A DNA stretch of 64,000 nucleotides from the human T2T-CHM13v2.0 reference genome, Homo sapiens, in the NCBI GenBank assembly GCA_009914755.4, contig CP068257.2, positions 38,048,001 through 38,112,000 of the forward strand, in the 5' to 3' direction. This document shows, piece by piece, positions 76-61,185 of this stretch (positions are counted from its first letter, which is position 1; each line of letters opens with the position of its first letter). Made by a program: the position numbers and the translations under genes. The notes under the pieces were generated by a model. That model did no database searches. It was not told where the DNA came from and saw only the letters and a list, made by a program, of their open reading frames with translations.

Positions 76-1559
76 TTTCTTTATACAATGAATAATTCTT
101 TTTCTTGAGGAAAAAACATTATTTCATGAATCTAGAACTTGAAGGAACCTTAGAGCTCATTCAATCCTGCCTCCTCTTTTATGTGGGATGCAAACGAGGC
201 TCAGAGAGACGTAACAACTTGCCCAGGACCTTCCCAGCTTGTTTGTTGCAGAAGGAGGGTTCCAGCTCAGCGTGGGTTTCCTGGTGCTGTCTTGTCTGGA
301 TGTGAGAGTGAGAAACAATGTGAAAGCATGAGTGAGGAGGCCAAGCAGTGCTTCCCCAGGAACACCCAGCGCTAGCTCCAGAGTGGGAATGGAGAGGTCC
401 AGGTTGGCCGGGCCGGGGCTTCACCGCAGGCACCCAGAGAGGAAGGATTCCGATGGGCAGGTGCTGAGCTAGGGGCTGTGTAGGTATTGCCTCATCTACA
501 TGCTCTCAATGAGTTTTCCGGGGGCAGAGACCTGCAGTTGCTCAGGTTTACAGATTAGGAAACTGAGGCAGAGAGAGAGAGGGTGAACAACTCATTCAAG
601 GTTACATAGGTGAAAAGTGGTGGAAACGGGGTGACCCTAAGCTGCCCTGTGGCCTCCCCAGCCACCTGCTGACGGAGCTGTGGGAGCACATTGCATTGGC
701 TGCTCCCACTGCCTCTCTGGGGTGCCTCCTCAGACTCCCCCAACCATACACGCCTACCCCCAGCCCCCAAACCTCCGTACTCTGCCTTCTACTGTGACTG
801 TGGCAGAAGCCACTTGGCCCCCGTGGTGCCAGAACCCCTGGTATTGGACTGACTCCAGCTCTTCTTCCACAGCTCCTGATGTGGCCTCACTCTCGTCCTA
901 CCACCTGCTGTCCCCTCTGCTGGATCACCCCATTAGCACACAGACACGCTGCCATTTTCCACCTGACCAGAAATGGCCACCACCTTCCCCGACCCCTTCC
1001 CTGACCCCCTTCCCCGTCCCGCTGCCCCATCCTGTTGCGTTTCTGGTGGAACCCCGCACGAGAGTTTTACTTGTCTGTTGCCTCGTCCTAATCCTTCCCT
1101 TCTTTCCCAAATGCCGTCTCATCAGACTTCTGCACCCCCACTCCACCCACGTGGCCCTTCTCAGGGCACCCACCACCCCCTGTGGCTGGGTCCTGTGGGC
1201 AGTTCTTGTTCTCCTCCTGCTTGACGTGGCGAGTCCTCATCACCAGCTTCCAGGACACCGGGTGCTCTTGGTCTCCCTCCTCCTTGCTGCTCGCCTTTTC
1301 CATCTCCCCTGCTTGCTCCTTCTCTTTGCTCTGACAGTGTCGTGCTGGAGGATCCTGGGCTCTGCGTGGGGCCCCCTTTCTTCCCTGGTTATACCCAGTC
1401 CTCCGAGGGGCCCACCTTGTCTCATGGCTTTAAATATGTTGATGATGTTTCCATTTATCTCCAGCCTAGAACTCTTTCTTGCTCTTCAATCCACTGCCTA
1501 CCTGATTTCCCATAGTGAACAATCCAACACTGACCTTCTGGTTAACTGCCCCACATCCA

Positions 1560-2455
1560 GCCCATCTGCAGCCATTCCCGTCTCAGGTAATGGCCACTCC
1601 ATCTTCCTGCAGCTCAAGTGGGAAGCCCTGGAGCCATTCCGACTCCTCTCCCATCTGGTGCATCAGGAAAGACTGTGGGAACTACCTTCAAATTCTCTCC
1701 AGGAGCCAACCACCTCCTGCCCCTCCACTGCGACCACCCTTGTTCAAGCCTGCATTGCCTCTCACCTGCATTCGTGCAGCTACCTCCAGACCCTCCCTCA
1801 GCTTCCATTATTGCATCCTTTGGTCTCTTCCCAGCAGCATCCAGAGTGATCCTTTGAAAATCTCATTTCTCTGCTCAAAACCCTCCTGAGGTTTCCCATC
1901 ACCAAGGATATTAAGGATAAAAACCACATCCTTCATACCATTGTCTACCTGTGATTCCCTAATCGTGTCCCTTTGCTCACTCCCTCTGGCCTCTTGCTGT
2001 TCCCTGAACAGCAGTCTGTTCCAGCCACAGCAGCCCCTTTGCCCTATGTGCCCATCCCCGTCAGCCTTGGCACTGGCTGTCCTCTCTGCTGGGAGTGCCC
2101 TTTCTTCAGATGCTCTCATGCTTCGCTTCTTTGCCTTGTTGACATTTGGTCAATGTCACCTTCTCAGTGAGGCCTACCCTGACCTCCCTGTAGGAAAATG
2201 CAACTCACCTCACTCCCATGCCCCGTACCTTATATTGTTTTCCTTGCGCTTACCAATTTCTAACAAAGCATGTAATATCTGTTTATTATAACATATCTAT
2301 ATTTTATGGTTTATGTTTCACGCGACTTGAATGTAACCTTTGTGTGGGCCGTGGGTCTTTCTCTGTTTCCTTCACTGACGCACCTTGGATTCTTAGCATG
2401 GTCCCAGCACATAGTAGATGCTCAATAAACATTTGTTGAGTGGAACTGAATGTAT
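1560..2455 (+). mobile_element. L2 LINE 3' end / MIR-type tail (ancient)
   Basis: Ends with ...ggtcccagcacatagtagatgctcaataaacatttgttgagtggaactgaatg, the shared L2/MIR 3' terminus. Upstream sequence is pyrimidine-rich and L2-3'UTR-like. Boundaries are approximate. Confidence 0.45.
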
Positions 2456-14760: not shown

Positions 14761-16253
14761 CAGGCTGCAAACTGACTATTGGTTTTAGTCTTAGCTCTGG
14801 ACCTCGCACTTTAAGCAAGAGACTTAGTCTCTCTAAGACTGGGTGCCTACAAATTTTTTTTTTTTTAATCAGCAAAATAAAGATAACTATCCTTTCCTTA
14901 CCATTCACCCAGCGATACTGTTGTCCCATAAAACCACCTGTGCATAAAAAAGAAAAGCATCCCTTTCTTCTGGCTCTTCAGCTGGGTGTCCTTGGGAAGG
15001 GGACCTCCTGCATGAGCTTCGGTGATGGCTGCATGAGTTAGCTAATGCTATGTAATGAATTACCACTCCAGTAGCTGAAACCAACATTTATCATTGCAGA
15101 ATTTCTTTGAGACTCTAGGCATGGTTAGCTGGGTGTCTCTGGCACGGGGTTTTTCACAAGGCTGCAGACAAAGTGTTGGCTGGTGGCTCATCTGAAGGCT
15201 TGACTGGGGATGGGTCCTCTTCCCAGCACACCCAGTGTTGTTGGCAGGACTTAGTTCTGTATTAGTTGTCTCTCTCTACCAGAGAGAGACAGCACCAGCA
15301 GGAGATGTATTTCTATCCATATCTGTATTTGTAGCTCTACCTCGATGTCTTTATTGCAAGGAATTGGCTTGTGCAATTATAGTTATTGGCCTGACAGGTC
15401 TGAAACCCACAGGGCAGGCCATCAGGAAGGGCAGGCTGGAATCCTTTCGATGCTGCAGTCTGCAGGTAGAATTTCTTATTTCTCAAAGGAGCTGCAATTC
15501 TGTTTTTTAAGAACTTCTGGTTGATTGGCTTAGGCCCACCCACATTATCCAGGATAACCTCTCTTGTATAAAGTCAACTGATTGTAGATGTTAACCACAT
15601 CTACAGAATAGCTTCACAGCAACACTTAAGCTAGGGTCATATCAAATCATGGGGACTGTAGCCTGGCCATAAGGACACACCAGCCTGATCATTACAAGTT
15701 CGTTTCTTTGCGGGTGTGAAACTGAGGGTCTCAGTTCCTTACTGGCTGTCAACAGAGTCCACCCTCAGTTCCCTGTCAGGTAGCTCCCCACACTCAGCTC
15801 ACAACACAGCAGGTGGTGAGTCCATGCAAGGCCCACATCACAATCTTCTGTAGCCTGACCATGTAAGATGCAATGACCTCTTGTTTCTCTTGTTGGATTC
15901 TGTTCATTAGAAGTAAATCTCCTGGTCCCACCCCTACTCAGGGGGAGAGGTTTGCTTCAGGGCCGTGAGTAGAAGTCTGCAATCACAGTGGCCCTACTCA
16001 GTCATTTCTGGGGAAAGTATCTGAGATGATATGTGTGAAATAATTGTGTGAGCCTGTATGTAAATATTAGCTAGAACCACAGGAAATTGTTTATTTTTCA
16101 CCTACAAAAATGGCTCACCTAATGTAAATGATTATAGTAACATAGGGGACTGAGAGGGCATAAAACGACTTTATAATATTGGGGGGGACCAGGCAAGAAT
16201 GAAATCTTGGCTAAATGGCAACTAAAACAGACAGAACCTGGGGATAGACAGGG

Positions 16254-16254
<1 letters not shown>

Positions 16255-16313
<59 letters not shown>
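16255..16313. repeat. (GA)n dinucleotide microsatellite, about 29 units, pure
   Basis: Read directly: uninterrupted gagagaga... Confidence 0.95.
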
Positions 16314-16316
<3 letters not shown>

Positions 16317-16361
16317 AGGTGCTGCTGATCGTAGTAGGTTTGCATTGGGCTTATTTTTCTT

Positions 16362-16705
16362 TCTATATATTGTCTATCATCTATCTATTTTCTATCTATC
16401 TATCATCTATCTATCTATCATCTATCTATCATCTATCATCTATCTATCTATCATCTACCTATCATCTATCTATCTATCAATCATCTATCTATCATCTATC
16501 TATATCTATCATCTATGTATCTATCATCTATCTATCATCTATCTATCATCTATCTTCATCATCATCATCTATGTGTTATCTATCTTCATCATCATCTATG
16601 TGTTATCTATCTTCATCATCATCATCTATGTGTCATCTATCTATCTGCCTACCAATCTATCTAATCTGTCTTGTCATCTATCATCTATGTATTAATCTAT
16701 TACGC
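16362..16705. repeat. Complex tetranucleotide array (TCTA/ATCT)n interrupted by (ATC)n and TCTG variants
   Basis: Read directly: ctatctatcatctatctatctatcatctatc..., about 340 bp. Confidence 0.9.
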
Positions 16706-17285
16706 ATTTTGTACTGGTCAGATGCTAGGCTTTATTTGAGCCTACAGTCATGCACCATGTAACAATGTTTTGATCACGATGAACTGCCTATATGATGGTG
16801 GTTCCATAAGATTATAATGTAGCTGAAAAATTCCCATGGCCTAGTGACATCATAGCTGTTGTAACATTGTAGCTCACTGAGTTTGTGGTGATGCTGGTGT
16901 AACCTGCTGGGCTGCTGGTTGTATAAAAGTCTAGCACACACAATTATGTAAGATATATAATACTTGCTAATGATAATAAACAGCGATATTACTGGTTTAT
17001 ATATTTACTACGCTATACTTTTTATCTCTTAGAGGGTACTCTTTTACTTATATTAAGAAAGGTAACGATAAAACAGCCTCAGGCAGGTCCTTCAGGAGGT
17101 ATCCAGAAGAAGGCATTGTTATCATCGGAGATGGCTGCTCCATGCCAGTGGGACAAGATGTGCAGGTGGAAGACAGTGATATGGATGATTCTGACCTTGT
17201 GTAGGCCTAGGCTAATGTGTATGTTTGAGTCTTCGTTTTTAACAAAAAATTTAAAAAGTAAAAAAGCAAAATTAAAAATTAATAA

Positions 17286-17660
<375 letters not shown>

Positions 17661-19842: not shown

Positions 19843-20195
19843 TGCATTAGTCCGTTTTCATGCTGCTGATAAAGACATACCTGAAACTGGCAATTTATAA
19901 AAGAAAGAGGTTTAATTGAGCTTACAGTTCCACATCGCTGGGGAAGCCTCACAATCATGGTGGAAGGCAAGGAGGAGCAAATCATGTCTTACATGGATGG
20001 CAGTAGGCAAAGAGAAGCCTTGTGCAGGGAAACTCCCCCTTATAAAACCATCAAATCTCATGAGACTTATTCACTATCATGAGAACAGCATGGGAAAGAC
20101 CTGCCCCCATGATTCAATGACCTACCACCAGATCCTTCCCACAGCACATGGGAATTCAAGAAGAGATTTGGGTGGGGACACAGCCAAACCATATC
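19843..20195 (-). mobile_element. THE1-type (ERVL-MaLR) solo LTR, reverse orientation
   Basis: ctgcattagtccgttttcatgctgctgataaagacatacctgaaactggcaatttataaaagaaagaggtttaattgagcttacagttccacatcgctggggaagcctcacaatcatggtggaaggcaagg...gggaattcaagaagagatttgggtggggacacagccaaaccatatca is the reverse complement of the THE1 consensus (tgatatggtttggctgtgtcccc...ctaatacag). Confidence 0.6.
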
Positions 20196-20959
20196 ACCAC
20201 TTATGAAATATTCTTGCAAAAACAAAAACAAAAAAAAATCAAATCTAAATCAGGTCAGACTTTTATATCTAACTACCAATCTACAGGAAATCCAGGGGAC
20301 AGAAGAATCTCTTTACTAGCAACACAGGCAATCAGCAAAGTCTCGGATGGTGGGAAACTATGGGACAAACAACTGGGTTTCTTCCACAAATATATTGTAA
20401 GGAAAAGAGAATGCAGTGGTGGGATGGGGAGGAGCTTATGGATTAAGACAGAAAGAAAGCAACATTGTGGGCAATTGCAATTTATGGCTGTTTCTTATTT
20501 TCTGATTACAACACAAATACTCTGATAAAACATTTATAAGTGGGGAAATTAAACACATTCTAGATATTTGATAACATCACAGAATTATTGTTAAATTTTA
20601 GATGTGATAGTTGTATTATGGCTGTGTTTAAAAGAGTTCTTGTCTTTTACAGATGCATACTGGAATATTTATGAACAATAAAATATCTGGTATTTGCTTC
20701 CAAATAATTTGACATAATTGGAAGGAAGTGGGTGGGTATGTCAATGAAGCAGATAAGTTGATAATATTGAAGTTGGCTAATAGTTACATGTAGGGTTGTC
20801 ATACTATTTTCTCCACTTTTATATATGTATTAGTTTTCTGTGAGTGTTGTAAGAAATAACCACAAACTTGGTGACTTAAAACAAGGTTAAATTTATCTTA
20901 CAGTTCTGTAGATCAGAAGTCCAACATGAGTCTCATGGTGCTAAAATCATGGTGTCAGT

Positions 20960-26535: not shown

Positions 26536-26543
26536 CATTTACC

Positions 26544-26588
<45 letters not shown>

Positions 26589-26648
26589 ATCTATCCGTCT
26601 ACCTAATATATCATCTATCTATGTATCTATCTATCTAATCTATCATCT

Positions 26649-37597: not shown

Positions 37598-38641
37598 AGT
37601 CTTTCTTTATTGTGGATGTCCTGTGACTTTGAAATAAATGAAATAGTCTATTCTGAACCTGAATTCTAGAGGCAATGGGATTTGAATCAGTGTTGGAACA
37701 TTCTTTCCATACCCTTTTCCCCTTTTGTTACTCCACTCTAAAGACTACCAGGTAAAAATATTCCATTTCACCAGCTCCTTTGCAGCTAAAGGGCTCTTCA
37801 CACAATTCTGGCTGATGAGATATAGGCAGAAGTCCCTGGGGGAGGATTCTCCTGTGCTTTTCCTCTTCTGTCTTCCTGAAATGTAGATGTAATAGCTGGA
37901 GGAGCAGCAGTCATCTTTTCGCCTTTAGAATCACATGACGATGATGATGATGAAGCTGAAGACAGTAAACACCTTATGAGCAGCTTTGTTGGCTTTGGAC
38001 TTTTACCCTTAAACTCGATGTTATGTGAGAAAATTAACCTTGTTACTTGTTGAAGCTATCCTTTGTCAAGTTTTCTGTTTTTGCAAAAAAAAAAAGAAAG
38101 AAAAAAAAGAAAAGAAAAAAGCCTTATATCTTTATATCTCCATACTCTCTCACACACTTGGGAGAGTGTTCTTAAACTAGTCTGCTTTAAGTTCATGCAT
38201 TAGAAACAAAGGTGCACTCTTAACAGCAATAAGATAATTAACAAGTCTTTTATTTCCTGCAGCTCATTTTCCTTTTACCTCTTATAAATCTCTTGCACTC
38301 ATTAAAAGAACCTGCTGAGAACTTATTATCAGCTGAGCTCTGGACATAGCATAGTGAGCTGGCCACACAGCATCACTGGCAGTGGTATGCTGATAAATGC
38401 TTGAGGGTAAGGAGACCTGGTTTGAGCATTTGTCAATTTCTGTGATGTAAACACTCCCACCATGGTTGAGCCTCCAACAGAGACCTCGCTGAAGGGAGAT
38501 TTAGGAAGAGATGTTCTCAATTGGTTCTTGGGAGTCCTGGGAGCCGGCTGCACTACCCTCTGAAGACAGTGCCCCAAGAGAGCAGACCAGGGCCCTTGCT
38601 AAAATCATTTTCTTAAGGGTAAGCCTTAGAGTATAGCTTAT

Positions 38642-38738
38642 CTATTGTATGTTGCCTTTGGCTCTTAACCATTCTCCTTGGGATCTTGATTACACTATTA
38701 ATTTGCTTAGCAAACACTTCCCTCAGAGTATAACAAAA
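38642..38738. repeat. Arm A of a 97-bp near-perfect inverted repeat (partner at 39391-39487)
   Basis: ctattgtatgttgcctttggctcttaaccattctccttgggatcttgattacactattaatttgcttagcaaacacttccctcagagtataacaaaa. Its reverse complement matches 39391-39487 at 95/97 positions. Confidence 0.85.
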
Positions 38739-39390
38739 TATACTGTGAGATAAAAGTCTTCTGATGGCTACATGCATCTCCAGGGCAAATAGCTAGGAAG
38801 GTGAGCAGGTTTGGTCATAGGTCAGTGACTTTTCTTTCCTTTGAATTCCCCAAAAGTCTTGGCAAGAGCTCCATAGCTTTCCCATTTTCTTTTTTTGTGT
38901 GTGTGTAATGCAGGTTATGAGACATACCATCCTCACTCTAATTTATATTTTGGGGGGAATTTAATAGATCCATTTTCTTTTTCATAGAGTTATGTTTGAT
39001 CATCAATCCAGGATCATCAATCCTGGGCTGATCTGGTGTGTTCAGAATTAAGATGAATTATTTCTACCATTAATCAGCTATTAATAATATAACATTTCCT
39101 TTTGCTGAAGTTTGTATAAAGAATTCTCTTACCAGGGAGCATCTGAGCCATAAGAAGCCTGCCACTCAGTGTTGCCAAAGGCAGACTTTTAGTGATGCTA
39201 ACTAGGGTGCCTCCCCTCTGTGGGTCTTCACCTTCCCCAATCCCACCCACCTGCTTGATATCTTAGAACTTGCCTATCCTCATGGGTTGACCTGGTGAGA
39301 GCCTGATTATGCTCACATAAAGTCACAACTTCACTAATTAGGCCCCAATAACTAGAGATTTGTTATACCTCAATGTGTTTAGCTCACGCT

Positions 39391-39487
39391 TTTTGTTATA
39401 CTCTGAGGGAAGTGTTTGCTAAGCAAATTAATAGTGTAATCAAGATCCCAGGGAGAATGCTTAAGAGCCAAAGGCAACATACAATAG
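39391..39487. repeat. Arm B of the inverted repeat, with an adjacent 17-bp tandem duplication at its outer edge
   Basis: ttttgttatactctgagggaagtgtttgctaagcaaattaatagtgtaatcaagatcccagggagaatgcttaagagccaaaggcaacatacaatag, followed by acatacaatagaatata duplicated in tandem. Confidence 0.85.
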
Positions 39488-39621
39488 AATATAACATACA
39501 ATAGAATATAATTGATCATTTAGATAAATAGCATAGGATCTTTCCTGAGAAACATCTTTTTAGGCAAATAATCTCAGATATTTGATAGACCTAGAAATCA
39601 TAAAGACCTTCTTTGGTTTGA

Positions 39622-39994
39622 GTTTTGATATAGGTTGGATTTGTGTCCCTGCCCAAATATCATGTCAAATTGTAATCTCCAGTGTCGGAGGGGAGCCTGG
39701 TGGGAGGTGATTGGATCATGGGAGCAGAGTTCCCCCTTGCTGTTCTCATTGATAGTGAGTGTGTTCTCACAAAATCTGGCTGTTTAAAAGTATGTAGCAC
39801 CTCCCCATTTGCTCTCTTCCTCCTGCCATGTAAGATGTGCCTGCTTACCCTTTGACTTCTGCCATGGTTGCAAGTTTCCTGAGGCCTCCTAAGCCATGCT
39901 TCCTGTACAGCCTGTGGAACTGTGAGCCAATCAAACCTCTTTTCTTTATAAATTACCCAGTTTCAAGTATTTCTTTATAGTATTGTGAGAACAG
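39622..39994 (+). mobile_element. THE1/MST-type MaLR solo LTR, forward orientation
   Basis: tgatataggttggatttgtgtccctgcccaaatatcatgtcaaattgtaatctccagtgtcggaggggagcctggtgggaggtgattggatcatggg...ccatgtaagatgtgcctgc...ctgtggaactgtgagccaatcaaacctcttttctttataaattacccagtttcaagtatttctttatagtattgtgagaacagactaatacaa. Confidence 0.55.
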
Positions 39995-40365
39995 ACTAAT
40001 ACAAATGTGCTCCCCCAAAGTTTATGTGTTAGAAACTTAACCCCCAACTGCAAAGTGTTGGGAGATGGAGCCTAATAAGAGGTGATTAGGTCCTGAGGGA
40101 TCTGCCCTCATGAGTGGATTAATGTTGTTATCATGAGAGTGGTTAGTTATTGTGAAAGTGGGTTGTTATAAAAGCAAGTTTGGCCCCCTTCCCCCTCTTG
40201 CTCTCTTGCTCTCACCCTCTCTTGCCCTTCTGTGTCCCACCATGGGATGACACAGCACAAAGGCCCATACCAGATGATATTGCCATGTTTTTGGACTTCC
40301 CAGCCTCCAGAACCATAAGCCAAATACATTATTTTCCAGGAATTATTATCTTTATTCGACATTTT
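39995..40365 (+). mobile_element. Second MaLR LTR (MST-like) directly abutting the first
   Basis: ccccaaagtttatgtgttagaaacttaacccccaactgcaaagtgttgggagatggagcctaataagaggtgattaggtcctgagggatctgccctcatgagtggattaatg...tggacttcccagcctccagaaccataagccaaatacattattttcc. Confidence 0.45.
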
Positions 40366-52800: not shown

Positions 52801-55637
52801 TTTTTTTTTCTTTTTTTAAAAAAATTTATTTTAGGTTTGGGGGTACATGTGAAGGTTTTTTACGTAGATAAACACGTGTCATGGGGGCTTGTTGTACCTA
52901 TTTTTACATCACCCAGATATTAAGCCCAGTACCCAATAGTTATCTTTTCTGCTCCTCTCTCTCCTCCCACCCTCTCCGCTCAAGCAGACCCCACTGTCTG
53001 CTGTTTCCTTCTTTGTGTTCGTAAGTTCTTATCATTTAGCTCCCGCTTGTAAGTGAGAAAATGCAGTATTTGGTTTTCTGTTCCTGCATTAGTTTGCTAA
53101 GGATGATAGCCTCCAGCTCCATCTGTGTTCCAGCGAAACACATGATCTTGTTCTTCTTTATGGTTGCATAATATTCTATGGTGTATATGTACCACATTTT
53201 CTTTATCCAGTCTGTCACTGATGGGCATTTAGGTTGATTCTATGTCTTTGCTATGGTGAACAGTGCTGCAATGAACATTTATGTGCATGCGTCTTTATGG
53301 CAGAATTATTTATATTCCTCTGGGTATTTACCCATTAATGGGATTGCTTGGTCAAATGCTAGTTCTGCTTTTAGCTTTTTGAGGAATCACCACACTGCTT
53401 TTCACAATGGTTGAACTAATTTACACTCCCACTAACAGTGTATAAGAATTCCCTTTTCTCTGCAACCTAGCCATTATCTGTTATTTTTTTGACTTTTTAG
53501 TAATAGCCATTCTGACTTGTGTGAGATGGTATCTCACTGTGGTTTTGATTTGTATTTCTCTCATGATCAGTGATATTGAGCTTTTTTTCATATGCTTCTT
53601 GGACGCATGTATGTCTTCTGTTGAGAAGTGTCTGTTTATGTCTTATGCCCACTTTTTAATAGGATTGTTTTTCTCTTGTAAATTTAAGTTCCTTACAGAT
53701 GCTGGATATTAGACCTTTGTCAGATGCATAGTTTGCAAATAGTTTTTCCCATTTTGCAGGCTGTATGTTTACTCTGTTGATAGTTTCTTTTGCTGTGCAG
53801 AAGGTCTTAAGTTTAATTAGATACCATTTGTCAATTTTTGCATTTGTTGTGATTGCTTTTGGTGTCTTTGTCATGAAATCTGCCTGTTCCTAGGTCCAAG
53901 ATGGTATTGCCTAGGTTGTCTTCCAAGGTTCTTATAGTTTTGGGTTTTACATTTAAGTCTTCAATCCATCTTGAGCTGATTTGTGTATATGGTGTAAGGA
54001 AGGGGTCCAGCTTCAATCTTCTGCATATGGCTAGCCAGTTGTCCCAGCACCACTTATTGAGTAGGGAGTCTTTTCCGCATTGCTTGCTTTTGTCAACTTT
54101 GTCAAAGATCAGATGGTCGTAGATGTGCAGCCTTATTTCTGGGCTCTCTATTCTGTTCCATTGGTCTATATGCCTGTTTTTGTACCAGTACCATGCTATT
54201 TTGGACACTGTAGCCTTGTAGTATAGTTTGAAATCAGGTAACATAATTCCTCCAGATTTGTTCTTTTTGCTTAGATTGCCTTGACTATTTGGGCTCTTTT
54301 TTGGTTCCATATAAGTTTTAAAATATTTTTTTCTAGTTCTGTGAAGAATGTCATTGGTACTTTTATAGGAATAACATTGAATCTGTAAATTGCTTTGGGT
54401 GGTATAGCCATTTTAATGATATTGATTCATCTAATCCATGAGCATGCAGTGTTTTTCCATTTGTTTGTGTCTGTTCTGATTTCTTTGAGCAGTAATTCTT
54501 TTATAATTCTCATTGTAGAGATCTTTCACATCCCTGGTTAGCTGTATTCCTGGGTATTTTTTTTTTGTGTGTGTCACAATTGAGAGTGGGATTGCCTTTC
54601 TGATTTGGCTCTCAGTTTGGTTGTTCCTGGTGTATAGGAATGCTAGTGATTTTTGTACATTGATTTTATATCTTGCAACTTTGCTGAAGTTGTTTATCAG
54701 CTGAAGAAGCTTTGGGGCTGAAACTATAGGGTTTTCTATGTATAAAACCATGTCATCTACAAAAAGAGATAAGTTTGACTTCCTCTCTTCCTATTTGGAT
54801 ACCCTTTCTTTCTTTCTCTTGACTGATTGCTCTGGTTAGGACTTCCAATACTATGCTGAATGGAAGTGGTGAGAGAGGGTATTCTTGTCTTGTGCTGATT
54901 TTCAAGGGGAATGCTTCCAGCTTTTGCCCATTCGGTATAATGTTGGCTGTGGGTTTGTCATAGATGGTTCTTATTATTTTGAGGTATATTCCTTCAATAC
55001 CTCGTTTATTGAGAGTTTTTAACACAAATGGATGTTGAATTTTATCAAAAGCCTTTTCTGCATTTGTTGAGATAATCATATGGTTTTTGTCTTTAGTTCT
55101 ATTTATGTGATGAATCACATTTATTGATTTTCATATGTTGAACCAGGCTTGCATCCTGGGGATGAAGCCTACTTGTTTGTGGTGGATTAACTTTTTGATG
55201 TGCTGCTGGATTCGGTTTGCAAGTACTTTGTTGAAGATTTTTGCATGGATGTTTATCAAGGGTATTGGCCTGAAGTTTTCTTTTTTTGTTGTGTCTGTGC
55301 CAGATTTTGGTATCAATATGATGCTGGCCTCATAGAATGAGTTGGGGAGAAATCTTCTTCCTCAATTTTTTGGAATAGTTTCTGTAGGAGTGGTACCAGC
55401 TCTTCTTTGTACATCTGGTAGAATTGGGCTCTGAATTCATCACATCCTGGGCTTTTTTTGATTAGCAGGCTATTTATTACTGATTCAGTTTTGCAGCTCC
55501 TTATTGGTCTGTTCCCGGAATCCATTTCTTCCTGGCCCAATCTTGGGAGGGTGTATGTGTCCAGGAATTTATCCATCTCTTCTAGGTTTTCTAGTTTGTG
55601 TGCATAGAGGTCAAATGAAAATTTCTGTATTTCTTTC
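52801..55637 (-). mobile_element. L1P-type LINE-1, 3' 2.8 kb (3'UTR plus about 2.2 kb of ORF2), antisense
   Basis: Poly-T then ttttaggtttgggggtacatgtgaagg...cccgcttgtaagtgagaaaatgcagtatttggttttctgttcctgcattagtttgctaaggatgatagcctccagctccatc... then continuous antisense ORF2 (tttgcaaatagtttttcccattttgcaggctg...; ccaggcttgcatcctggggatgaagcctacttgtttgtggtgg...). Confidence 0.85.
53831..55576 (-). pseudogene. LINE-1 ORF2 (reverse transcriptase plus C-terminal region) pseudogene fragments
   Basis: Minus-strand ORFs translate to recognisable ORF2 peptide: [13 protein letters not shown]...KKSPG.D.F.A.FYQ.YKEELVP; ...[128 protein letters not shown]. Broken by stops and frameshifts. The RT catalytic FADD motif reads ...KLISFCR* . 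Confidence 0.8.
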
Positions 55638-55756
55638 TTTCCTTCTTTTTGTGTTGAAAGAAGCTCTTGCTATGTTGCCCAGGCTGGTCTTGCACTCCTG
55701 GGCTCAAGCAATCCTCCTGCCTCAGCCTCCCGTGTAGCTGGGGCTACAGGTGTGTG
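55638..55756 (-). mobile_element. Alu-like fragment (FLAM/FRAM-type) abutting the 5' break of the L1
   Basis: gaaagaagctcttgctatgttgcccaggctggtcttgcactcctgggctcaagcaatcctcctgcctcagcctcccgtgtagctggggctacaggtgtgtg. Confidence 0.55.
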
Positions 55757-60642: not shown

Positions 60643-60827
60643 TTAATAATAGAATTAAGTGGAAATATTTTCACTTATTCCTCTTTATATGAGTACTTTT
60701 ATTTGGTGCAACAATGTACCCAGCTAAAAGAATACATTTCTCATTTTCCTTTGCAGGAGGTGTAGACATTTGACTAAATTCTAGCTACTGTGTTATGTGG
60801 GCTTCTTGGAAGATTCCTTATAGCTCG

Positions 60828-61185
60828 GTGATATGGTTTGGCTGTGTCCCCACCCAAATCTCATCTTGAATTCCTACGTGTTGTGGGAGGGACCCTGTGG
60901 GAGGTAATTGAATCATGGGGGAGGTCTTTCCTGTGCTGTTCTTGTGATAGTGAATAAGTCTCATGAGATCTGATGGTTTTTAAATGAGGAGTTCCCCTGC
61001 ACAAGCTCTCTGTTTTTGCCTGCTGCCATCCATGTAAGATGTGACTTGCTCTTCCTTGCCTTCCGCCATGACTGTGAGGCTTCCCCAGCCACATGAAAGT
61101 GTAAGTCCAACAAATCTCTTTCTTTTGTAAATTGCCCAGTCTTGTGTATGTCTTTTATCAGCAGCATGAACATGGACTAATACAC
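60828..61185 (+). mobile_element. THE1-type (ERVL-MaLR) solo LTR, forward orientation
   Basis: gtgatatggtttggctgtgtccccacccaaatctcatcttgaattcctacgtgttgtgggagggaccctgtgggaggtaattgaatcatgggggaggtctttcctgtgctgttcttgtgatagtgaataagtctcatgagatctgatggttttt...ccatgtaagatgtgacttgctcttccttgccttccgccatgactgtgaggcttccccagccacatg...ttgtaaattgcccagtcttgtgtatgtcttttatcagcagcatgaacatggactaatacac. Confidence 0.6.

What the first reader, a model, noticed from the sequence alone, without database searches (positions are those of the whole stretch)
38642..39487. 97-bp inverted repeat at 98% identity with a 652-bp spacer, far younger-looking than every surrounding repeat
Arms 38642-38738 and 39391-39487 are reverse complements with 2 mismatches in 97 nt.

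Every recognisable interspersed repeat in the vicinity (MaLR LTRs, L1M, MIR) is 15-30% diverged. Either this structure arose recently or something keeps the arms homogeneous, such as gene conversion between arms or selection for a hairpin.

Arms this long (97 bp) bracketing a 650-bp non-coding core would be atypical for known human DNA transposons. Arm B is immediately followed by a 17-bp tandem duplication (acatacaatagaatata x2), which looks like a slippage or repair scar at the junction. The spacer contains a smaller internal hairpin (ccaggatcatcaatcctgg).

Possible identities are:
- a MITE-like non-autonomous DNA transposon with long terminal inverted repeats (TIRs);
- a recent local inverted duplication;
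- a transcribed long-hairpin RNA locus (endo-siRNA or miRNA-like precursor).

It is also a cruciform or replication-fork-stalling motif and therefore a candidate rearrangement hotspot.
Basis: seen in the sequence. Interest (0 to 1): 0.6.

Follow-up and report, generated by a model that had tools for sequence, protein, structure and literature searches.

The report
Young local inverted duplication, 98 bp
A 98-base stretch of non-coding primate DNA was copied in reverse orientation about 650 bases away, most likely by a replication or repair slip a few million years ago; it is a real but ordinary mutational scar and shows no sign of being a mobile element or an RNA gene.

Summary
Arms 38641-38738 and 39391-39488 are 98 nt (not 97), match at 96/98, and are 652 nt apart. 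At 98% the pair is the identity outlier among 129 repeat pairs in the window (median 77%, next best 91.7%). Homology stops dead at all four arm ends. There is no second copy in the 64 kb, no abutting target-site duplication, no transposase remnant and no Rfam match. A 24-mer from the arm found only this same locus in 241 M metagenome records.

Ten Alus in the window give an internal clock. It puts the arms (about 1% divergence per lineage) roughly six times younger than the youngest Alu, so about 3-7 My old with an upper bound near 20 My. That is well after primate DNA transposons went quiet (~37 Mya).

Only arm B carries partial re-copies of its own ends: a degenerate ~26-nt copy on the inner side and the 17-bp tandem duplication on the outer side. 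This suggests B is the derived copy, made by stuttering template switching.

Best reading: a single-copy local inverted duplication, a long-range relative of known template-switch mutations. The MITE reading is unlikely, a hairpin-RNA function is unsupported, and the fragility claim is weak because the spacer is long. Outgroup genomes could not be reached. Interest is low.

The parts
38641..38738 (+). Arm A, 98 nt; probably the ancestral (template) copy
   Evidence: Inverted-repeat pair I1; 96/98 match to the reverse complement of arm B. Its flanks carry no partial self-copies (A_inner p=0.39-0.97, A_outer p=0.07).
38739..39390 (.). 652-nt spacer; non-coling, unique in the window, 40% GC, 1 CpG
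   Evidence: The longest ORF is 58 aa. No Pfam hit at E<=10 for the ORFs of the element. No other copy in the window. No Rfam hit.
39359..39384 (+). Degenerate partial direct copy of the first ~30 nt of arm B (TTTGTTATAC-CTCA---ATGTGTTTAGCT); candidate abortive first round of copying
   Evidence: Local alignment of flank against arm scores 26, p=0.002 against 500 shuffles, and starts in register with the arm terminus. On an empirical null from 5885 real window positions the frequency is 0.53%, mostly microsatellites. The test is post hoc.
39385..39390 (+). 6-nt filler CACGCT between the partial copy and the full copy
   Evidence: Read directly from the sequence and from the alignment limits.
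39391..39488 (-). Arm B, 98 nt, reverse complement of arm A; probably the derived copy
   Evidence: It is flanked on both sides by partial copies of its own termini. It is present with identical variant bases in independent contig L001.
39476..39511 (+). Perfect 17-bp tandem duplication (AACATACAATAGAATAT x2.1). Each unit is the last 13 nt of arm B plus ATAT. The next bases (AA) repeat the start of the unit, a 2-nt microhomology.
   Evidence: the repeat finder family D4; TRF score 72, 100% matches; also present in L001.
38628..38637 (+). AGAGTATAGC, a 9/10 direct match to the inner end of arm A (AGAGTATAAC, 38725-38734). A related AGAATATAAC spans the outer end of arm B (39486-39495). These may be microhomology at switch points or coincidence.
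   Evidence: Motif scan, and an empirical frequency of about 0.3% at non-simple positions. Post hoc; unexplained.

Best explanation
This is a single-copy, local inverted duplication. A discrete 98-bp segment of non-coding DNA (arm A) was copied in reverse-complement orientation to a site about 650 bp away (arm B) by a DNA-synthesis error. A nascent 3' end left its template during replication or break repair, copied the nearby segment from the opposite strand or from itself, and then returned.

In the four-point template-switch model this is event type 3-2-1-4 or its mirror 1-4-3-2. An equivalent alternative is type 3-1-2-4, in which the 652-nt spacer was inverted in the same event.

The partial re-copies of arm B's own ends suggest low-processivity, iterative switching in these steps: (1) an abortive copy of about 26 nt; (2) release, leaving the filler CACGCT; (3) re-initiation at the same template position; (4) the full 98-nt copy; (5) release; (6) a 13-nt re-copy.

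The event dates to roughly 3-7 My ago, with an upper bound near 20 My. Nothing indicates a function; it is a neutral mutational scar.

What is shown: the repeat itself, its sharp limits, its single-copy status in the window, its relative youth, and the asymmetry of the junction scars. What is inferred: the mechanism, which arm is derived, and whether the spacer was inverted.
For: (a) Homology is 96/98 within the arms and falls to background at all four ends. Ungapped extension and gapped local alignment of 150- and 300-nt flanks score no better than shuffles.

(b) Neither the arm nor the spacer has another copy in the 64 kb. A 24-mer from the arm hit only one of 241 M metagenome records, and that hit is this same locus. 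There were no hits in genome or viral contigs.

(c) The pair is the identity outlier among 129 repeat pairs in the window.

(d) Internal clock: ten near-full-length Alus show 5.9-18.7% non-CpG divergence from their joint consensus, and the minimum pairwise value is 9.4%. P(<=2/98 mismatches | 9.4%) = 0.004. The arms contain no CpG.

(e) Only arm B is flanked by partial copies of its own termini.

(f) The topology matches published template-switch event classes that create inverted repeats: 31% of human-chimp events, plus 23% that also invert the spacer. Such events are abundant in primates: 53,666 putative events in genic regions, with single events of up to 83 bases.
Against: No outgroup sequence could be obtained. 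The derived state, the polarity (which arm is new) and the orientation of the ancestral spacer are therefore untested.

The event is larger and longer-range than catalogued short-range template switches. Those surveys searched only within about 100 nt, and eukaryotic lagging-strand single-stranded zones are 100-200 nt.

The arm ends show 0-nt microhomology if the event was a simple insertion.

The 'stutter' copy is only 22/30 columns identical, whereas the main copy is 98% identical. It could therefore be an older, unrelated local duplication, which would point to arm B as ancestral. Its significance (p about 0.002-0.005) is post hoc.

Genome-wide copy number was not measurable.
Confidence: 0.68

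Rival explanations
1. A non-autonomous DNA transposon (MITE-like; for example a Mutator-, hAT- or Tc1/mariner-type deletion derivative) with 98-bp terminal inverted repeats and a 652-bp non-coding interior, inserted here by a transposase.
For: The architecture fits: two long terminal inverted repeats bracket a non-coding core. A palindromic TA lies 4 nt inside each end, so a 94-bp-TIR element with a TA duplication cannot be formally excluded. An 11-mer direct match at 9/11 (TAGAGTATAGC / TAGAATATAAC) lies near both outer ends. On absolute rates alone, a 37-My-old insertion still gives <=2 mismatches with P=0.29 at 0.5e-9 per site per year.
Against: No TSD abuts the repeat ends. The 9-11-mer is out of register, sitting 3-5 nt outside the repeat on the left and 4 nt inside it on the right. 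Its 2/11 mismatches also fit poorly with arms at 2/98 (P=0.02).

The structure next to the arms is asymmetric, whereas transposase-binding subterminal repeats would be symmetric.

There is no second copy in the window and no other locus in any public scan. There is no transposase remnant.

At 848 bp it exceeds the 50-600 bp usually quoted for MITEs.

Primate DNA transposons are considered inactive since about 37 Mya. The arms are significantly younger than the Alus of this window (P=0.004 against the closest Alu pair).
Confidence: 0.07
2. An older inverted repeat whose arms are kept nearly identical by arm-to-arm gene conversion, or by selection for a long RNA hairpin (an endo-siRNA or miRNA-like precursor, or an ADAR substrate).
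For: Arm identity is high in a neighbourhood of old repeats. The transcript would fold into a ~98-bp stem, MFE -340.9 kcal/mol, z = -12.8. One of the two mismatches (T/C) would still pair as G-U in one transcript orientation. Template-switch-born hairpins have become miRNA genes in primates.
Against: The fold follows automatically from any inverted repeat. There is no Rfam match at E<=1 locally or at gathering score across the window. A 98-bp stem with a 652-nt loop lies far from the ~35-bp stem and short apical loop of miRNA precursors.

Conversion tracts inside an old repeat would leave decayed homology beyond the identical core, and none is seen.

From established knowledge, not tested here: 98 bp is below the roughly 200-bp homology needed for efficient mammalian recombination.

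There are no expression data.
Confidence: 0.05
3. Arm B is the ancestral copy and arm A is the derived one. The mechanism class is the same as in the best explanation, with opposite polarity. The degenerate partial copy left of arm B would then be an older local tandem duplication, and the 17-bp duplication a later slippage event.
For: The partial copy at 39359-39384 is much more diverged (22/30 columns) than the arm pair (96/98), as expected if it is older than the inversion-duplication. The perfect 17-bp tandem duplication with 2-nt microhomology is a common independent kind of mutation. An AGAGTATA direct repeat brackets arm A at a spacing equal to the arm length.
Against: This reading requires a coincidence. 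The inner boundary of the new copy (arm A) would have to fall exactly at the boundary between arm B and its older partial duplicate, within 1 nt. Under the stutter model, the shared start position follows naturally.
Confidence: 0.18
4. An assembly or sequencing artefact (a chimeric fold-back) and not real genomic structure.
For: Arm A itself was not seen in any independent sequence.
Against: Independent short-read contig L001 reproduces arm B, both junctions of arm B, the tandem duplication and 503 nt of the spacer at 100% identity. The arms differ at two positions, whereas an artefactual fold-back would be identical.
Confidence: 0.02

Closest known systems
Template-switch mutations under the four-point model (Loytynoja & Goldman 2017, PMC5453318; Walker et al. 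2021, PMC7954356)
   Same: A discrete stretch is an exact reverse-complement copy of nearby sequence, which creates a new inverted repeat. The topology equals event type 3-2-1-4 / 1-4-3-2, or 3-1-2-4 if the spacer was inverted in the same event. The junctions are messy, with small duplications.
   Different: Scale. The copied fragment is 98 nt (750 nt if the spacer was inverted) and the template lies 652 nt away. Published surveys look within about 100 nt and mostly find fragments of 10-80 nt. The ancestral state has not been verified here.
FoSTeS/MMBIR-type complex rearrangements and polymerase-theta-type templated insertions
   Same: Both involve iterative template switching that leaves inverted templated segments, short fillers and re-copied stretches at junctions. 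This matches the arrangement here of partial copy, filler, full copy and re-copy.
   Different: Those events are usually described either at kb-Mb scale (PMC11293582) or at 3-30 nt (the latter from my own knowledge). This one falls in between. Clear microhomology exactly at the arm ends is lacking.
Hairpins born from template switching that became primate miRNA genes (Monttinen et al. 2023, PMC10710096)
   Same: A perfect stem arises in a single mutational step from previously unstructured, non-coding primate DNA.
   Different: Those stems are 30-55 bp with short loops, and the loci are expressed and annotated. Here the stem is 98 bp, the loop is 652 nt, no miRNA family matches, and there is no evidence of transcription.
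MITEs / non-autonomous class II transposons with long TIRs (for example Mutator-like or IR/DR Tc1-like elements)
   Same: Long terminal inverted repeats around a non-coding core.
   Different: There is no abutting TSD, no symmetry of subterminal repeats and no other copy detected. The arms are too young for the known period of primate DNA-transposon activity.
Fragile inverted repeats (closely spaced inverted Alus, palindromic AT-rich repeats)
   Same: Two highly similar inverted arms that could pair in single-stranded DNA.
   Different: The arms are short (98 bp, against ~300 bp for Alus or kb-scale repeats) and the spacer is long (652 nt). Fragility falls steeply with spacer length: a 52-bp spacer already abolished stalling in eukaryotic cells, and 6-kb Ty arms with a 280-bp spacer are stable in wild-type yeast.

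Membership tests
Template-switch mutation (four-point model) | A fragment that is the reverse complement of nearby sequence on the same chromosome | tested here: met
   96/98 reverse-complement identity, with the source 652 nt away
Template-switch mutation (four-point model) | Discrete switch points: homology ends abruptly at both ends of the copied fragment | tested here: met
   Flank alignments are no better than shuffles
Template-switch mutation (four-point model) | Derived state: the copy is absent from the ancestral or outgroup sequence and is explained by one event | not testable with these tools
   No primate genomes were reachable. Four exact-ORF look-ups, one protein search and five DNA scans returned only the same locus or nothing
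Template-switch mutation (four-point model) | Template in the immediate vicinity (tens to hundreds of nt) | tested here: inconclusive
   652 nt is beyond the +-100 nt searched in published surveys but within one replication fork or repair patch
Template-switch mutation (four-point model) | Microhomology or a pre-existing short repeat at switch points (classical model) | tested here: inconclusive
   There is 0 nt exactly at the arm ends. The motif AGAGTATA(A/G)C / TTTGTTATAC recurs within 3-33 nt of three junctions, at about 0.3% chance each, post hoc
MITE / non-autonomous DNA transposon | Terminal inverted repeats | tested here: met
   98-nt arms
MITE / non-autonomous DNA transposon | Target-site duplication directly abutting both termini | tested here: not met
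   The scan covered +-6 nt at each boundary and TSD lengths 2-12. It found only an out-of-register 8/9 match and an uninformative palindromic TA inside the repeat
MITE / non-autonomous DNA transposon | Multiple dispersed copies in the genome | tested here: inconclusive
   None in the 64-kb window. The only public hit is this locus itself. The host genome could not be searched
MITE / non-autonomous DNA transposon | Short size (50-600 bp as quoted in PMC11195612) | tested here: not met
   The unit is 848 bp
MITE / non-autonomous DNA transposon | Age compatible with the period of transposase activity in the lineage (more than ~37 Mya in primates) | tested here: not met
   The arms are significantly less diverged than any Alu pair in the window (P=0.004). 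The absolute-rate test alone is inconclusive
miRNA / hairpin-RNA precursor | Match to a described RNA family | tested here: not met
   No Rfam hit in 38.6-39.5 kb at E<=1 or at gathering score
miRNA / hairpin-RNA precursor | Precursor geometry (~35-bp stem with a short apical loop) | tested here: not met
   98-bp stem and 652-nt loop, compared with the requirements quoted
miRNA / hairpin-RNA precursor | Transcription and small-RNA production from both arms | not testable with these tools
   No expression data were available
Fragile / cruciform-forming palindrome | Long, highly similar arms with a short or absent spacer | tested here: not met
   The arms are 98 bp at 98% identity, but the spacer is 652 nt. 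Spacers of 52-280 bp already stabilise much longer arms
Conversion-maintained palindrome (sex-chromosome type) | Kilobase-scale arms homogenised over long periods | tested here: not met
   The arms are 98 bp with abrupt ends and no decayed homology beyond them

The most novel reading that the evidence does not exclude
The unit is a copy of a previously unrecognised, low-copy DNA transposon family with ~100-bp terminal inverted repeats that was still mobile in the ape lineage within the last ~20 My. [quoted passage not shown]

A milder novel reading is much more probable (~0.5). On that reading the locus is a clean natural specimen of a 'mid-range' template switch (a ~100-nt copy over a ~650-nt jump, with preserved stutter footprints). 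Such an event would bridge the catalogued short-range events and the kb-Mb FoSTeS/MMBIR rearrangements.
Probability: 0.03. Interest if true: 0.75.

Novelty: new member of a known kind. Interest (0 to 1): 0.2.

Why it matters
As it stands, this matters little. Small inverted duplications are an expected by-product of replication and repair, and tens of thousands of template-switch mutations are already catalogued in primates.

There are two modest points of value. First, published surveys restrict the template search to about 100 nt, so events like this one (98 nt copied from 652 nt away) are systematically missed. Loci of this kind could calibrate how far the process reaches. Second, the junction footprints around arm B, if they prove to be derived, would record the sequence of polymerase switches in a germline event.

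The locus would matter more if it were multi-copy with target-site duplications, which would indicate recent primate DNA-transposon activity. It would also matter more if it were transcribed, since a 98-bp perfect dsRNA stem would be an ADAR/MDA5-relevant substrate. Neither is indicated by the evidence.

Tried and rejected
(1) Fetching the orthologous locus through ORFs. Exact look-ups of four window ORFs spanning arm A, arm B, the spacer and the left flank all returned 'not on record'. A 5.8-billion-protein search with the arm-A ORF found nothing.

(2) Finding a gene handle. A Pfam scan of 122 stop-to-stop ORFs of at least 88 aa found only L1 reverse transcriptase. The conspicuous 402-codon open frame at 641-1846 has no homologue. 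The locus therefore stays anonymous, and primate orthologues could not be fetched.

(3) DNA scans of public collections. Metagenome contigs gave one hit, which is the same locus in a human-contaminated, adapter-bearing, chimeric contig. Genome contigs (two patterns) and viral contigs gave nothing.

(4) Gene conversion inside an older, longer inverted pair was rejected, because there is no residual homology beyond the arms.

(5) MIR origin of arm A, suggested by the 11-mer GCTCTTAACCA. The 11-mer is coincidence.

(6) Transposase remnants in the interior: none.

(7) Known RNA families: none.

(8) The internal 7-bp hairpin as a feature of interest was rejected as chance-level.

(9) Absolute-rate dating as an argument against a transposon turned out weak (P=0.29 at the slow rate). 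It was replaced by the internal Alu clock.

Full report
OBSERVATION. The inverted repeat exists as described, with small corrections. The arms are 38641-38738 and 39391-39488. They match at 96/98 positions and are separated by 652 nt. The two differences lie at arm-A positions 38669 (C vs G) and 38678 (T vs C), and neither is a CpG site. The arms are 36% GC and contain no CpG. BLAST E for the pair is 9e-44, so chance is not an issue.

The 17-bp tandem duplication is real and perfect: 39476-39511, 2.1 copies. It overlaps arm B instead of following it. Each unit consists of the last 13 nt of the arm plus ATAT.

The small hairpin at 39008-39026 is real but no more than chance would give. The shuffle test gives P = 0.24, and the window averages 2.2 such hairpins per 652 nt. 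It arises from a 14-bp tandem repeat.

WHAT KIND OF DNA THIS IS. The window is primate. Alu/SRP-like matches occur at 17.4 kb and 37.1-37.6 kb, and ten near-full-length Alus are present. There are MIR copies at 62-76% identity. A MaLR-type LTR at 39626-40003 has relatives at 19.8 and 60.8 kb. L1 reverse-transcriptase remnants lie at 53.8-55.7 kb.

A metagenome contig, L001, starts with a Nextera adapter remnant and becomes chimeric after an A-run. It is 100% identical to window 38888-39545. This means that arm B, both of its variant bases, both of its junctions, the 17-bp duplication and most of the spacer exist in an independently sequenced sample, very probably human.

IS IT YOUNGER THAN ITS SURROUNDINGS? 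Yes. Among 129 repeat pairs of at least 60 bp in the window, median identity is 77%, the 95th percentile is 84% and the runner-up is 91.7% over 60 bp. This pair is 98%.

Absolute dating from 2/98 (2.0%, 95% CI 0.25-7.2%) gives 7-20 My depending on the rate assumed, with wide limits. On its own that does not exclude an age of 37 My. P(<=2 mismatches) is 0.29 at 0.5e-9 per site per year and 0.02 at 1e-9.

An internal clock is more informative. The ten Alus differ from their joint consensus by 5.9-18.7% at non-CpG columns, and the closest Alu pair differs by 9.4%. P(<=2/98 | 9.4%) = 0.004. Per lineage, the arms (about 1%) are roughly six times less diverged than the youngest full-length Alu here. 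Taking Alu S-type ages of roughly 25-40 My (my own knowledge), this suggests about 3-7 My with an upper bound near 20 My.

ANATOMY. Homology ends abruptly at all four arm ends. Ungapped extension fails immediately. Gapped local alignments of 150- and 300-nt outer and inner flanks score no better than shuffles. So this is a discrete 98-bp segment present twice. It is not the best-preserved core of a longer, older inverted pair.

Neither the arm nor the spacer has another copy in the 64 kb. The spacer is non-coding: its longest ORF is 58 aa, and it has no Pfam hit at E<=10. No Rfam family matches at E<=1 locally or at curated thresholds across the window.

The predicted RNA fold has a ~98-bp stem (MFE -340.9 kcal/mol, z = -12.8). 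That is the automatic consequence of the repeat and is not evidence of function.

TRANSPOSON TEST. I scanned every boundary within +-6 nt and TSD lengths of 2-12 nt. No duplication abuts the ends. The best candidate is TAGAGTATA / TAGAATATA, which matches 8 of 9 (9 of 11 if extended). It is out of register: 3-5 nt outside the repeat on the left and 4 nt inside it on the right. Its mismatch density also fits poorly with the arms (P = 0.02). A palindromic TA inside each end is uninformative.

A 24-mer shared by both arms was found once in 241 M metagenome records, and that hit is this locus. It was found nowhere in the genome or viral collections. This argues crudely against a young multi-copy family, but it cannot replace a search of the host genome.

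[quoted passage not shown] The Alu clock places the arms well after that time.

A NEW DETAIL: ASYMMETRIC JUNCTION SCARS. Comparing each flank with the arm itself shows that arm B, and only arm B, is flanked by partial direct copies of its own ends.

On the inner side, 39359-39384 (TTTGTTATAC-CTCA---ATGTGTTTAGCT) aligns with arm B nt 2-30 (TTTGTTATACTCTGAGGGAAGTGTTT-GCT). The alignment starts in register with the arm terminus. It is followed by the 6-nt filler CACGCT and then by the full copy. Against shuffles p = 0.002. Only 0.53% of 5885 real window positions show an equally good in-register, junction-proximal self-copy, and most of those are microsatellites.

On the outer side, the arm's last 13 nt are re-copied within the 17-bp tandem duplication. 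Arm A has no counterpart (p = 0.07-0.97).

The arm's inner-end motif, AGAGTATAAC, also recurs in 9/10 form just left of arm A and across the outer end of arm B. All of these tests are post hoc and should be treated as suggestive.

The asymmetry argues against a transposon, whose subterminal repeats would be symmetric. It points to arm B as the newly synthesised copy, made by a polymerase that initiated, aborted, re-initiated at the same template position, copied 98 nt, released and re-copied the last 13 nt.

The alternative is that arm B is ancestral and the degenerate copy is an older tandem duplication. That fits the copy's greater divergence. It also requires the inner boundary of arm A to coincide, within 1 nt, with the edge of that older duplicate. 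I give this opposite polarity about 0.18.

MECHANISM. The topology is that of a template-switch mutation in the four-point model of Loytynoja & Goldman. [quoted passage not shown] Type 3-1-2-4 additionally inverts the spacer and accounts for 23%. The second type corresponds to a ~750-bp micro-inversion with a 98-bp duplication at one breakpoint. The two cannot be told apart without an outgroup.

Such events are abundant in primates. One study reports 53,666 putative events in genic regions, 31,007 of which create a new stem, with individual events of up to 83 bases. The present case is larger and longer-range than the catalogued ones, but those catalogues searched only within about 100 nt.

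The iterative, filler-containing junctions resemble FoSTeS/MMBIR or polymerase-theta-type templated synthesis. This resemblance is an inference from established knowledge and was not tested.

Against the simplest version of this mechanism, there is no microhomology exactly at the arm ends.

OTHER CLAIMS. Gene conversion between the arms is unlikely. The arms are short, and no decayed homology lies beyond them.

The 'rearrangement hotspot' suggestion is weak. Fragility increases with arm length and identity and falls with spacer length. Inverted Alus stopped stalling forks in eukaryotic cells when the spacer was lengthened from 12 to 52 bp. Ty repeats of 6 kb with a 280-bp spacer are stable in wild-type yeast. 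The eukaryotic single-stranded zone at the fork is only 100-200 nt (PMC7999016).

A miRNA-like role is geometrically implausible, because precursors have a ~35-bp stem and a short loop. A long-hairpin or ADAR-substrate role cannot be tested here.

VERDICT. This is a genuine, young, apparently single-copy inverted duplication of 98 bp. It is best explained as a mid-range template-switch or templated-repair event, with arm B probably the derived copy (confidence about 0.68 for the mechanism class). I put the transposon reading at about 0.07, the maintained or functional hairpin at about 0.05, and an artefact at about 0.02.

It is a new member of a known kind of mutation, and its interest is low (0.2). 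The decisive missing evidence is a genome-wide copy count, a Dfam check, and an alignment to ape and monkey orthologues. None of these could be obtained with the tools available.

Noticed in passing
window 641-1846 (+): A 402-codon stop-free reading frame, proline/leucine/serine-rich, in the GC-rich first 12 kb of the window. It has no homologue among 5.8 billion proteins and no Pfam hit, so it is most likely a chance open frame in GC-rich DNA.
   Followed up: yes
L001 1-12 and 671-1144: The only public contig matching the locus (ENA ERZ1033861, coverage 1.5x) begins with a Nextera adapter remnant (TATAAGAGACAG). After an (AC)n/A-run it switches to sequence found nowhere in the window. It is probably a chimeric assembly of host contamination in a metagenome, not a structural variant.
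   Followed up: partly
window 17384-17531 (+): An Alu element just reaches Rfam's gathering score for Metazoa_SRP (70.8 vs 70 bits). This is an Alu-derived false 'SRP RNA gene' call, not a real 7SL gene.
   Followed up: no
window 38998-39025: A 14-bp tandem repeat (GATCATCAATCCAG / GATCATCAATCCTG) lies in the spacer. The hairpin is at chance level.
   Followed up: yes
window 38628-38637, 38725-38734, 39486-39495: The motif AGAGTATA(A/G)C, or a 1-mismatch variant, lies just outside arm A, at the inner end of arm A, and across the outer end of arm B. Each coincidence has about 0.3% empirical frequency, but the tests are post hoc. It may be microhomology used at switch points, or coincidence in AT-rich sequence.
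   Followed up: partly
window 16180-16760 and 26540-26640: Long compound microsatellites, (GA)n followed by (TATC/CATC)n-type arrays. They dominate the high-scoring tail of the self-similarity controls.
   Followed up: no
window 39626-40003 (+), 19843-20198 (-), 60827-61184: Three copies of a MaLR (THE1/MST-like) LTR at 66-85% pairwise identity. One begins only 138 nt right of arm B, but no part of the inverted-repeat unit is homologous to it.
   Followed up: partly
window 53834-55669 (-): Consecutive ORF fragments of an L1 ORF2 (RVT_1, E = 4.8e-10). This is the only protein-domain signal among 122 long ORFs in the window.
   Followed up: no
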